This document shows, in pieces, positions 78-660 of a DNA stretch of 660 nt. This stretch comes from Escherichia coli (GTDB lineage Bacteria > Pseudomonadota > Gammaproteobacteria > Enterobacterales > Enterobacteriaceae). The notes under the pieces are model-generated. The model was not told the origin of the DNA and made no database searches. It saw only the letters and a list, made by a program, of their open reading frames with translations. A program made the translations under genes and the position numbers. Location of the stretch: NCBI RefSeq assembly GCF_003334355.1, contig NZ_QOWP01000104.1; one strand, 5' to 3'. The first letter of the stretch is position 1. Each line of letters opens with the position of its first letter.

Positions 78-433
78 AGTAAAATGAATAATGATCCGTA
101 CCGTACAACTGCGGATAATGTGATAAGCGGGACGACTTCAGACGTTATTAGGGAAGGAACAGAAAATGCTATGGTTATGTGAGAATTTTGTTTAAATATT
201 ACTTTACAGAAACGGGTGTCTGTTCAGTCAAAAAAATAATCACAAGCTCAACCTCTTGTTTCTTGGCGTTATTCAGGACAGGTACGCATATCACAACGAG
301 TAACAAAAACGTAAAGTTAAACCAATATTCATAATATATTTTTATTCACAGCAATAAATAATCCAATTAACATTATTAAAATGAATGATTGCATAAGAAA
401 TATATGCTACCGCTCCACCCTGATAACATGATC

Positions 434-447
434 TGCACATTGCACAT
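434..447. repeat. Tandem direct repeat of heptamer TGCACAT (x2), immediately 3' of a GATC site (430-433)
   Basis: TGCACAT at 434-440 and again at 441-447 with no spacer; GATC at 430-433. Sequence-level observation only. Confidence 0.5.
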
Positions 448-552
448 CTTAACGTTGTTAAATACTGGCTCAATAGTGGATATTTTAAATTAGGAATTTA
501 TCAAATTCACTTGATAAATAGATTGAGTGAATAATATAACAATTAATGATGA

Positions 553-566
553 TTAATCGCGATTAA
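553..566. repeat. Perfect 14-bp palindrome TTAATCGCGATTAA inside an array of three ATTAA(T/A) hexamers phased at 10 bp (542-547, 552-557, 562-567); candidate dimeric regulator binding site
   Basis: TTAATCGCGATTAA at 553-566 is its own reverse complement. ATTAAT starts at 542 and 552 and ATTAAA at 562, exactly one helical turn apart. The sequence is directly visible; the function is inferred. Confidence 0.5.
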
Positions 567-660
567 ATTATTCATTGCTTTATATGGGTAATGACTCCAA
601 CTTACTGATAGTGTTTTATGTTCAGATAATGCCCGATGACCTTGTCATGCAGCTCCACCG

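What the first reader, a model, noticed from the sequence alone, without database searches (positions are those of the whole stretch)
78..620. About 550 bp AT-rich, gene-free region upstream of vgrG with an H-NS-motif-like site
GC content drops from about 58% in the vgrG start to roughly one-third overall, and below 20% in 301-360 and 481-540. This is typical of horizontally acquired DNA silenced by H-NS/StpA, and T6SS clusters in enterobacteria are known H-NS targets. TTGATAAATA (511-520) matches the H-NS nucleation motif tCGATAAATT at 8 of 10; CGATTAAATT (560-569) is a weaker relative. An intergenic region this long could also hide a small RNA or unusually complex regulation.
Basis: partly seen in the sequence, partly recalled or inferred. 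Interest (0 to 1): 0.45.

Follow-up and report, generated by a model that had tools for sequence, protein, structure and literature searches.

The report
AT-rich vgrG island promoter, IS1-truncated
This is the AT-rich promoter and long untranslated leader of a horizontally acquired E. coli type VI secretion accessory operon (vgrG-eagR-rhs), a kind of DNA already known to be bound by the silencer H-NS; here it is cut short by an IS1 insertion, so it is ordinary in kind apart from one unexplained conserved box.

Summary
The low G+C is real: 31% over 78-586 and 18% in both named sub-windows. No gene, conserved ORF, Rfam family or conserved RNA fold lies in 68-586. Two points need correcting. First, 587-660 is the end of an IS1 element, so the region is not a 550-bp intergenic stretch. 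The uninterrupted spacer between cusS and vgrG is 736 bp. Second, the H-NS motif matches are at chance level (2 found, 1.86 expected).

The DNA is the cusS-side end of an accessory type VI island (vgrG-eagR-rhs) that K-12 lacks. It is EHEC's vgrG1/vgrG-2 (Z0707) locus. Published data support H-NS binding. In strain SE11, whose spacer is 99.8% identical, cusS is H-NS-bound only because of this neighbouring island. The 80%-identical K-12 copy upstream of rhsE is H-NS-bound by ChIP-seq and genomic SELEX.

Cappable-seq in EDL933 places a sense transcription start at window 474, behind GTGAAT-17-TAAAAT. This gives a 407-nt leader. It also places antisense starts at 103 and 206.

A G+C-rich core (406-438) is conserved upstream of at least five unrelated accessory T6SS operons. 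Its function is unknown.

Verdict: a known kind of element, of modest interest.

The parts
1..67 (-). 5' end of vgrG (first 22 codons; start codon at 67..65)
   Evidence: Translation reads MSTGLRFTLEVDGLPPDAFAVV. [quoted passage not shown]
73..77 (-). Shine-Dalgarno sequence GGAGG of vgrG
   Evidence: Read directly from the sequence. It is invariant in all vgrG-type alleles aligned.
88..93 (-). Degraded proximal -10 (CATTAT). It is the counterpart of the TATTAT -10 of the vgrE-type promoter, whose start site lies 14 nt before the ATG.
   Evidence: The EDL933 Cappable-seq start 2052061(-) lies 14 nt upstream of the vgrE-type vgrG, behind TTGTAC-17-TATTAT. In the window allele a 10-bp deletion removes the -35 spacing and the -10 is CATTAT.
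68..474 (-). Inferred 407-nt untranslated leader of the vgrG operon, running from the mapped distal start site to the base before the ATG
   Evidence: The EDL933 orphan start 675571(-) maps to window 474. No other sense-strand start is listed between it and vgrG. No terminator-like site was found. Read-through into vgrG is inferred, not shown.
103..103 (+). Antisense transcription start (by homology)
   Evidence: EDL933 Cappable-seq start 675202(+), class u-asTSS, maps to window 103.
206..206 (+). Antisense or orphan transcription start (by homology)
   Evidence: EDL933 Cappable-seq start 675305(+), class oTSS, maps to window 206.
406..438 (-). G+C-rich conserved core (sense strand GTGCAGATCATGTTATCAGGGTGGAGCGGTAGC), with weaker conservation out to about 451. 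It spans +37 to +69 of the leader and contains a Dam GATC site at 430-433.
   Evidence: It is conserved at 80-100% upstream of five unrelated accessory T6SS operon types plus one remnant, while the flanks are unalignable. It occurs in 4,740 of 5,426 complete E. coli genomes at 1-3 places each.
482..487 (-). -10 hexamer TAAAAT of the distal promoter
   Evidence: It ends 7 nt upstream of the mapped start site. The sequence is identical in the window and EDL933.
505..510 (-). -35 hexamer GTGAAT of the distal promoter (17-nt spacer)
   Evidence: Found by the promoter scan and by the context of the mapped start site.
496..519 (.). Perfect 9-bp inverted repeat ATTTATCAA-N6-TTGATAAAT, whose 6-nt spacer is the -35 hexamer. 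Its arms carry the two H-NS-motif-like matches (495-504 on - and 511-520 on +).
   Evidence: Sequence and motif search. The repeat is imperfect in EDL933 and in the rhsE-type allele, so it is a candidate operator only.
545..586 (.). Distal part of the spacer that is specific to the cusS site. Similarity to the yncH/rhsE-site copy ends at about 545-550.
   Evidence: Alignments. K-12 lacks the whole spacer.
587..660 (-). Right end of an IS1 element: terminal inverted repeat from 587 and the InsB C-terminus with stop codon on the - strand of 602-660. The transposase gene reads towards vgrG.
   Evidence: It is 98.6% identical to IS1 in L001 and L002. Translation gives VELHDKVIGHYLNIKHYQ*. Orientation comes from the annotated copies. 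The insertion point lies 113 bp upstream of the mapped start site.

Best explanation
Window 68-586 is the regulatory end of a horizontally acquired accessory type VI secretion island (vgrG, the EagR chaperone, a PAAR-Rhs toxin and immunity genes) inserted beside cusS. It contains a sigma-70-type promoter (-35 GTGAAT 510-505, -10 TAAAAT 487-482, start at 474). That promoter would give a 407-nt untranslated leader ending at a strong ribosome-binding site. The whole 69%-A+T stretch is bound by H-NS. H-NS keeps the operon nearly silent in laboratory conditions, and the same A+T-richness allows weak spurious starts on the opposite strand (103, 206). A short G+C-rich core in the leader (406-438) is a cis element of unknown partner, shared by all Escherichia accessory vgrG/PAAR islands. 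In the source genome an IS1 inserted 113 bp upstream of the start site. It left the promoter and leader intact but replaced the outer 150 bp of the spacer as the promoter's upstream neighbour.

Shown: composition, synteny, absence from K-12, the IS1 end, conservation of the core, and the start sites in a 94.5%-identical orthologue. Shown in the literature on near-identical or paralogous DNA: H-NS binding. Inferred: read-through from 474 into vgrG, silencing of this particular promoter by H-NS, and any function of the core.
For: Composition is confirmed.

Synteny: the identical spacer sits between cusS and vgrG-DcrB-related(EagR)-RHS in IS1-free genomes.

Horizontal origin: K-12 has a 149-bp nfrB-cusS spacer with no similarity, and homology resumes only inside the cusS 3' end.

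H-NS binding. In SE11 the ChAP-seq study lists cusS as H-NS-bound only through the neighbouring SE11-specific segment ECSE_0626-0633. SE11's spacer is 99.83% identical to window 1-586. The K-12 paralogue (79.5% identity over window 124-549) lies in a region marked H-NS-bound from ChIP-seq at a PhoB peak centred at 1527862, whose motif at 1527855-1527872 falls inside the leader homologue. The yncH>rhsE spacer also carries both an RpoD-holoenzyme site and an H-NS site by genomic SELEX.

Promoter. The EDL933 Cappable-seq orphan start 675571(-) maps to window 474, with GTGAAT-17-TAAAAT-7 nt-A upstream. The region shown from -45 to +12 matches the window except for one base in the palindrome arm. 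An independent promoter scan ranked this site second in this allele. No other sense start lies between it and vgrG in that data set. No terminator-like site was found.

Silence. [quoted passage not shown] The EHEC T6SS is H-NS-repressed.

No competing gene or RNA.

Repeated independent IS1 insertions in this spacer fit the published finding that H-NS-bound DNA is a transposition hotspot. That finding was made for IS5-family elements, not IS1.
Against: No H-NS occupancy data exist for the source genome or for any IS1-bearing allele. The SE11 evidence is one step removed, because the table concerns cusS and the island, not the spacer by name.

I found no measurement of this vgrG in an hns mutant.

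The start site at 474 is classed as 'orphan' and is weak. It could be pervasive transcription. Continuity of that transcript with vgrG has not been shown.

The paralogous vgrE locus uses a different, proximal start 14 nt before the ATG, so the distal promoter is not a universal feature of these leaders. Its -10 is poorer in the other island types.

H-NS motif matches and A-tract phasing are at chance level.

The core has no identified binding partner, no RNA structure and no covariation.
Confidence: 0.75

Rival explanations
1. The start at 474 is spurious, pervasive initiation typical of AT-rich H-NS-bound DNA. The true vgrG promoter lies elsewhere: a weak proximal one near 88-93, as in the vgrE paralogue, or one active only under unknown inducing conditions. 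The AT-rich stretch would then be upstream silencer DNA rather than a leader.
For: The paralogous vgrE locus in EDL933 has its mapped start 14 nt before the ATG, detected in 7 of 8 conditions. The same spacer shows three further starts on the other strand. The 474 start is classed as orphan and has modest fold changes.
Against: In the cusS-type allele the proximal promoter has lost its -35 through a 10-bp deletion, and in the window the -10 is CATTAT. No sense start nearer to vgrG is listed for EDL933. The 474 start has a near-canonical -10, spacer and distance.
Confidence: 0.2
2. The distal promoter drives a separate small non-coding RNA that includes the conserved core. This RNA ends before vgrG and acts in trans or in cis.
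For: There is an orphan start site 407 nt from the nearest gene. A conserved 33-50-nt core lies just downstream of it.
Against: No Rfam match comes near threshold. There is no terminator-like site. The leader folds no better than shuffles: z = +1.36 for the whole leader and -0.1 to -1.0 for the first 92-95 nt. There are no compensatory pairs in 4- or 7-sequence alignments. In the vgrE type the core lies about 350 bp upstream of the mapped start, so it need not be transcribed there.
Confidence: 0.1
3. The IS1 insertion is the functionally important feature. By displacing the outer spacer DNA 113 bp upstream of the start site, it weakens H-NS silencing or adds read-through transcription. This would activate the vgrG-rhs operon, as IS1 and IS5 insertions activate the silent bgl operon.
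For: The IS1 transposase gene reads towards vgrG. Several independent IS1 insertions cluster in this spacer in other strains, with different 9-bp target duplications. IS insertion upstream of the H-NS-silenced bgl promoter activates it (abstracts).
Against: Clustering is equally explained by IS capture at H-NS-bound AT-rich DNA without selection. One insertion (L002) lies inside the leader and another (L006) comes with a deletion, which looks like damage rather than tuning. Only about 32 of 5,426 genomes carry an IS1 near this junction. No expression data exist.
Confidence: 0.15
4. The region is a decayed coding sequence, a pseudogene remnant, rather than regulatory DNA.
For: In a third island type the same conserved block is followed by two small genes (hypA and hypB) before vgrG. 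One 35-codon - strand ORF (306..199) stays open in three of four alleles.
Against: tblastn of hypA and hypB against the leader finds nothing better than E = 1.7. Alleles differ by 1-, 4-, 10- and 11-bp indels, and every ORF is broken in at least one allele. The one open ORF has lower amino-acid than nucleotide identity and a stop codon in O157. No CDS or pseudogene appears under the stretch in the rows listed out of about 2,700 full-length genomes.
Confidence: 0.03
5. The conserved block is kept not for regulation but as a homology anchor at the island edge. Through it, different vgrG/PAAR cargo modules would be exchanged by recombination at the two chromosomal hot spots.
For: The block sits near the island boundary at both sites, and very different cargo follows it. 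One cusS-site allele (L008) looks rhsE-like within the leader.
Against: The block has itself diverged to 73-78% between types, so it is a poor recent recombination substrate. Within the block the G+C-rich core is much better conserved than its surroundings, which suggests sequence-specific constraint. The two roles are not mutually exclusive.
Confidence: 0.1

Closest known systems
H-NS-silenced type VI secretion promoters in enterobacteria (EHEC main T6SS cluster tssB/hcp divergent promoter; Salmonella SPI-6)
   Same: Both are AT-rich, horizontally acquired T6SS DNA that is transcriptionally almost off in vitro. H-NS is documented as the repressor of the EHEC cluster. Published binding data cover this island's neighbourhood and its paralogue.
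   Different: This is an accessory (orphan) vgrG-eagR-rhs island, not the main cluster. Derepression in an hns mutant has not been reported for it. Its promoter lies 407 nt from the gene. It carries a conserved core that I did not find anywhere else in E. coli genomes, including the main clusters.
EHEC O157:H7 vgrG1 / vgrG-2 (Z0707)-eagR (Z0706)-rhsF island, S-loop 44
   Same: It is the orthologous locus at the same chromosomal site. The spacer is 94.5% identical and shares the promoter and core sequence.
   Different: The EHEC spacer is shorter (593 bp) and has no IS1. The window allele is the one common in non-O157 strains such as SE11.
K-12 yncH-rhsE spacer (RhsE element remnant)
   Same: It is about 80% identical over window 124-549, including the core and the promoter block. 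It is experimentally H-NS-bound and RNA polymerase-bound.
   Different: In K-12 the leader abuts a truncated rhsE pseudogene and vgrG is missing. It carries a PhoB site that has decayed in the window allele. Its predicted TTGACT-17-TATTAC promoter is destroyed in the window by an 11-bp deletion.
bgl operon regulatory region of E. coli
   Same: Both are silent, AT-rich, H-NS-bound control regions that repeatedly collect IS1 insertions roughly 100 bp upstream of the promoter (the distances for bgl are from my own knowledge).
   Different: For bgl the insertions are proven to activate the operon. Here no expression data exist, and some insertions disrupt the leader.
Post-transcriptional control of orphan vgrG islands (RsmA in Pseudomonas aeruginosa)
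   Same: There is a long untranslated leader ahead of an orphan vgrG. In EHEC, swapping the vgrG1 promoter gave no VgrG1 or RhsF protein, and the authors suggested an unknown post-transcriptional block.
   Different: No CsrA/RsmA-type GGA hairpin is conserved in this leader. The core reads AUCAGGGUGG rather than containing a GGA loop, by my inspection. Nothing was tested experimentally.

Membership tests
H-NS-bound xenogeneic (horizontally acquired, AT-rich) DNA | A+T content far above the genome average over several hundred bp | tested here: met
   The stretch 78-586 is 69% A+T. Only 2% of 509-bp windows in 182 kb of E. coli DNA fetched around these loci are as AT-rich, though that sample is biased towards islands.
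H-NS-bound xenogeneic (horizontally acquired, AT-rich) DNA | Strain-variable presence, indicating horizontal acquisition | tested here: met
   It is absent from K-12 MG1655 and, per Higashi 2016, from SE15. It is present in 3,762 of 5,426 genomes.
H-NS-bound xenogeneic (horizontally acquired, AT-rich) DNA | H-NS occupancy in vivo | tested here: met
   Met through published data only. In SE11 (spacer 99.8% identical) the ChAP-seq study finds cusS bound only because of the adjacent island segment. The K-12 paralogue is bound by ChIP-seq and genomic SELEX. Occupancy has not been measured on the IS1-bearing source genome.
H-NS-bound xenogeneic (horizontally acquired, AT-rich) DNA | Derepression of the downstream genes when hns is deleted | not testable with these tools
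   The papers found report hns effects on the EHEC main cluster only. None reports on Z0707/vgrG1.
H-NS-bound xenogeneic (horizontally acquired, AT-rich) DNA | Enrichment of the high-affinity motif TCGATAAATT (supportive, not strictly defining) | tested here: not met
   There are 2 matches with up to 2 mismatches against 1.86 expected, and 116 of 200 shuffles do as well.
Sigma-70 promoter | -35 and -10 hexamers with 16-18-nt spacing placed 6-8 nt upstream of an experimentally mapped primary 5' end | tested here: met
   The arrangement is GTGAAT-17-TAAAAT-7 nt-A. The start was mapped by Cappable-seq in EDL933. Across the 58 nt shown around the start the window differs by one base, in the palindrome arm just upstream of the -35. 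It was not mapped in the source strain.
IS1 insertion sequence | IS1 terminal inverted repeat and the adjacent InsB C-terminal coding sequence | tested here: met
   74 of 74 bases align at 98.6% to annotated IS1 copies. The translation gives VELHDKVIGHYLNIKHYQ*.
IS1 insertion sequence | 9-bp target-site duplication flanking a complete 768-bp element | not testable with these tools
   The other end lies outside the 660-base window. Related insertions in L001, L002 and L003 are 768 bp with 9-bp duplications.
Accessory (orphan) T6SS vgrG island | vgrG followed by an adaptor or chaperone and a PAAR/Rhs effector with immunity genes, away from the main T6SS cluster | tested here: met
   The order vgrG, DcrB-related (EagR), RHS toxin is seen in every genome examined that carries this spacer and an intact island. 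It is named as an orphan vgrG locus in EHEC papers.
Known small RNA, riboswitch or leader families (Rfam) | A covariance-model match at the gathering threshold, or a conserved structure with covariation | tested here: not met
   The best Rfam hits score 18-24 bits against thresholds of 40-170. Folding gives z = +1.36. There are 0 compensatory pairs.

The most novel reading that the evidence does not exclude
The G+C-rich core at 406-438, with its flanking block out to about 520, is a dedicated and so far undescribed control box shared by all Escherichia accessory T6SS islands at the cusS and yncH/ansP hot spots. It would be either an operator for an unknown regulator or a protein-binding site in the leader RNA. 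It would hold every spare vgrG/PAAR/Rhs module under one common switch. It could also be the 'unknown post-transcriptional mechanism' invoked when swapping the EHEC vgrG1 promoter failed to yield protein.
Probability: 0.3. Interest if true: 0.55.

Novelty: new member of a known kind. Interest (0 to 1): 0.28.

Why it matters
Its value lies mainly in annotation. It places a mapped promoter and a 407-nt leader in front of a widespread E. coli effector operon. It also shows that the apparent intergenic region is truncated by IS1.

The part worth a specialist's attention is the short core conserved upstream of at least five otherwise unrelated accessory T6SS operons, in 87% of complete E. coli genomes. 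E. coli T6SS accessory islands are notoriously silent in the laboratory, and promoter replacement has not been enough to express them. A shared cis element gives a concrete, testable handle on that problem. The repeated IS1 hits in this spacer are also a natural example of IS elements targeting DNA that published data suggest is H-NS-bound.

Tried and rejected
- Rfam at permissive E-values gave only sub-threshold noise.
- Intrinsic terminator scan found none.
- Folding of the whole leader and of its first 92-95 nt, and alifold on 4 and 7 sequences, gave no excess stability and no covariation.
- ORF conservation across four alleles: none conserved.
- tblastn of the two small genes of the third island type against the leader found nothing.
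- Consensus scans for Fur, CRP, IHF, PhoB, sigma-54 and Lrp were all within the shuffle range.
- AA/TT helical phasing was not above shuffles.
- My first promoter guesses were dropped in favour of the experimentally mapped start at 474. These were TTATCA-16-TATATT with its -10 at 399-404, and TTGAGC-16-TAAGAT with its -10 at 446-451. The first has a non-conserved -10 in other types.
- Shimada's predicted TTGACT-17-TATTAC promoter in the K-12 copy is not conserved here, because of an 11-bp deletion.
- The scan of 100,044 species-representative genomes with a 20-mer from the core returned a single chance hit in a Bacillota MAG with no further similarity. In hindsight the 20-mer was too strict, because it does not match island types 3 and 4.
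- Supplements of Kahramanoglou 2011 and of the EHEC Pch/H-NS paper held nothing usable.
- The EDL933 start-site tables are cut in storage, so a distal start at the vgrE locus can be neither shown nor excluded.
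Full report
**What is in the window.** The - strand of 2-67 encodes MSTGLRFTLEVDGLPPDAFAVV, the start of a VgrG spike protein. Its start codon is at 67..65 and a GGAGG ribosome-binding site is at 77..73. From 68 to 586 the DNA is 31% G+C, falling to 18% in 301-360 and 481-540.

From 587 the sequence changes character. Positions 587-660 are 98.6% identical to the ends of annotated IS1 elements. The - strand of 602-658 encodes the InsB C-terminus and stop codon.

**Where it comes from.** The 509 bases 78-586 occur at 99% identity or more in 2,270 E. 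coli records, and no feature is annotated under the match in the rows listed. In IS1-free genomes the spacer runs 736 bp from the cusS stop codon to the vgrG start. It is followed by vgrG, a DcrB-related (EagR) chaperone gene and a large RHS toxin gene.

K-12 MG1655 has only a 149-bp nfrB-cusS spacer with no similarity, and homology resumes inside the 3' end of cusS. The whole spacer therefore belongs to a strain-variable island.

In O157:H7 the orthologous locus is 94.5% identical. It is the orphan island called vgrG1 or vgrG-2 (Z0707)-eagR (Z0706)-rhsF, in S-loop 44.

The exact IS1 junction of the window is not present in any of 5,426 complete E. coli genomes. The nearest are insertions 8 or 9 bp further out. 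The source is therefore an E. coli or Shigella lineage not in that collection.

**Is it gene-free?** Yes, for 68-586. The longest ORF is 51 codons. Four allele types differ by 1-, 4-, 10- and 11-bp indels, and every ORF is interrupted in at least one of them. The single ORF that stays open in three alleles has lower amino-acid than nucleotide identity and a stop codon in O157.

In a third island type two small genes lie between a shared block and vgrG. Their proteins have no detectable similarity to the leader.

**H-NS.** The motif argument fails. TCGATAAATT with up to two mismatches occurs twice, against 1.86 expected, and 116 of 200 shuffles do as well. AA/TT phasing is also at chance.

Published binding data nevertheless support the conclusion.

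- Higashi et al. 2016 mapped H-NS in K-12, SE11 and SE15. They list 42 core genes bound only in strains that carry a neighbouring strain-specific segment. cusS is one of them, with the segment ECSE_0626-0633 in SE11 and none in K-12 or SE15.
- SE11 carries eight annotated features from the ISEc1 element to vgrG next to cusS. This matches that range by count, which is my inference. Its spacer differs from window 1-586 at one base.
- The leader has a paralogue. About 80% identity over window 124-549 lies upstream of vgrG-rhsE beside yncH, and in K-12 directly against the truncated rhsE pseudogene.
- That K-12 spacer carries an RNA polymerase holoenzyme site and an H-NS site by genomic SELEX.
- A PhoB ChIP-seq peak centred at 1527862 has its motif at 1527855-1527872 inside the leader homologue. 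It is flagged as lying in a region bound by H-NS in the Kahramanoglou ChIP-seq data.

None of this was measured on the IS1-bearing genome. I found no report of this vgrG being derepressed in an hns mutant.

**Transcription.** The Cappable-seq study of EDL933 used eight conditions in triplicate. In the cusS-vgrG spacer it lists one sense-strand start, 675571(-), classed as orphan, and three starts on the other strand, at 675202, 675305 and 675709.

By alignment these are window 474(-), 103(+), 206(+) and a position beyond the IS1 insertion point. Upstream of 474 the sense strand reads GTGAAT-17 nt-TAAAAT-7 nt-A, with both hexamers and the spacer identical in the window. My own scan had ranked this site second. 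No sense start lies nearer to vgrG in that data set, and no terminator-like site was found.

The simplest reading is a 407-nt leader. Continuity with vgrG has not been shown.

The paralogous vgrE locus behaves differently. Its start, seen in 7 of 8 conditions, is 14 nt before the ATG, behind TTGTAC-17-TATTAT. In the window allele a 10-bp deletion removes that -35 and the -10 reads CATTAT.

The -35 of the distal promoter is exactly the spacer of a perfect 9-bp inverted repeat (496-504 and 511-519). The arms of that repeat are the two H-NS-motif-like matches. This makes it a candidate operator. It is imperfect in EDL933 and in the rhsE type.

**A conserved core.** Sliding identity between the cusS-type and rhsE-type leaders peaks at 391-510.

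More distant searches found the same block, or only its G+C-rich centre, upstream of three further operon types beside ansP/yncG:

- two small genes, then a different vgrG, eagR and rhs;
- PAAR, vgrG, DUF2169 and a PAAR-like gene;
- PAAR, vgrG and an M35 peptidase.

Between types everything from the core to the first gene (253-366 nt) is unalignable. The core itself, GTGCAGATCATGTTATCAGGGTGG(A/G)GCGGTAGC (window 438..406), stays 80-100% identical.

It occurs in 4,740 of 5,426 genomes at one to three places and nowhere else. Every locus with enough flank lies next to CusS, YncH, YncG or AnsP. One is a remnant in a relative with only 82% YncG identity.

The core shows no RNA structure or covariation. 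It matches no common regulator consensus above chance. In the cusS type it would be transcribed (+37 to +69). In the vgrE type it lies about 350 bp upstream of the mapped start. Its role is unexplained.

**IS1.** The element sits 113 bp upstream of the mapped start and reads towards vgrG. Other strains carry independent IS1 insertions in the same spacer:

- L001, target duplication ATAGATGGC;
- L003, target duplication GATAGATGG;
- L002, target duplication AACGTTGTT at window 451-459, inside the leader;
- L006, no duplication and a deletion reaching ybdF.

This fits reports that H-NS-bound DNA captures transposons, shown for IS5-family elements. It also recalls IS activation of the H-NS-silenced bgl operon. 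No expression data bear on it here.

**Assessment.** The element belongs to a well-known class, the H-NS-bound promoter region of a horizontally acquired T6SS island, at a locus already named in the EHEC literature.

The new points are the placement of a mapped promoter and long leader, the recognition of the IS1 truncation and hot spot, and the shared core of unknown function. In EHEC, replacing the vgrG1 promoter gave no VgrG1 or RhsF protein, and the authors suspected post-transcriptional control. The leader and core are obvious candidates for that control, but this is conjecture.

Noticed in passing
window 587-660: The right end of an IS1 element, with the InsB C-terminus on the - strand, abuts the AT-rich spacer. 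This exact junction is absent from 5,426 complete E. coli genomes and from all fetched loci.
   Followed up: yes
L001 9596-10363; L003 6595-7362; L002 6460-7227 (= window 451-459); L006 3295-4062: There are at least four further independent IS1 insertions in the same cusS-vgrG spacer. Three have different 9-bp target duplications. One has no duplication and a deletion reaching ybdF. This is a local IS1 hot spot.
   Followed up: partly
window 496-519: A perfect 9-bp inverted repeat, ATTTATCAA-N6-TTGATAAAT, has as its 6-nt spacer the -35 hexamer of the mapped promoter. It is imperfect in O157 and in the rhsE-type allele.
   Followed up: partly
window 406-438 (to about 451): A G+C-rich core is conserved upstream of five unrelated accessory T6SS operon types and one remnant, in 87% of complete E. 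coli genomes. It contains a Dam GATC site at 430-433. Its function is unknown.
   Followed up: partly
window 103 (+) and 206 (+): Transcription starts on the strand opposite to vgrG, mapped by Cappable-seq in the EDL933 orthologue. They are consistent with pervasive initiation in AT-rich DNA.
   Followed up: partly
L005 4001-4409; NC_000913.3 1527467-1527904 (L140 1468-1905): K-12 keeps an 80%-identical copy of the leader fused directly to the truncated rhsE pseudogene. A published PhoB ChIP-seq site (TATCAGAAAAATGTCATG) lies in it. The corresponding window sequence (about 158-175) has lost the pho box.
   Followed up: yes
L012 3858-4747 and L011 3864-4747: Two small genes lie between the conserved block and a different vgrG. 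One is 176 aa with an HEMMH metallopeptidase-like motif, and the other is a 120-aa lipoprotein-like protein. They look like an effector/immunity pair.
   Followed up: no
L003 5276-6067: In strain GZ2408P the vgrG start codon now heads a truncated AraC-family (envY-like) pseudogene next to an IS3 element. This implies that a deletion fused the leader to a different gene.
   Followed up: no
window 88-120 versus L007 and L008: The cusS-type allele has a 10-bp deletion relative to the rhsE type. It removes the -35 of the proximal promoter that is active at the vgrE locus. An 11-bp deletion near 322 likewise destroys the promoter predicted for the K-12 copy.
   Followed up: yes
L008 3958-4700: One cusS-site allele (strain 2012C-4502) resembles the rhsE type inside the leader but the cusS type outside it. 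This suggests recombination between the two island sites.
   Followed up: no
L075 and L136, about 176 nt downstream of the core: In metagenomic contigs from a relative with only 82% YncG identity, the core is followed by a frameshifted ISAs1-family transposase and a PAAR-Rhs gene. The core survives in this degraded locus.
   Followed up: partly
window 199-306 (- strand): A 35-codon ORF with a TTG start stays open in three of four alleles. It has a stop codon in O157 and lower amino-acid than nucleotide identity, so I judged it non-coding.
   Followed up: yes
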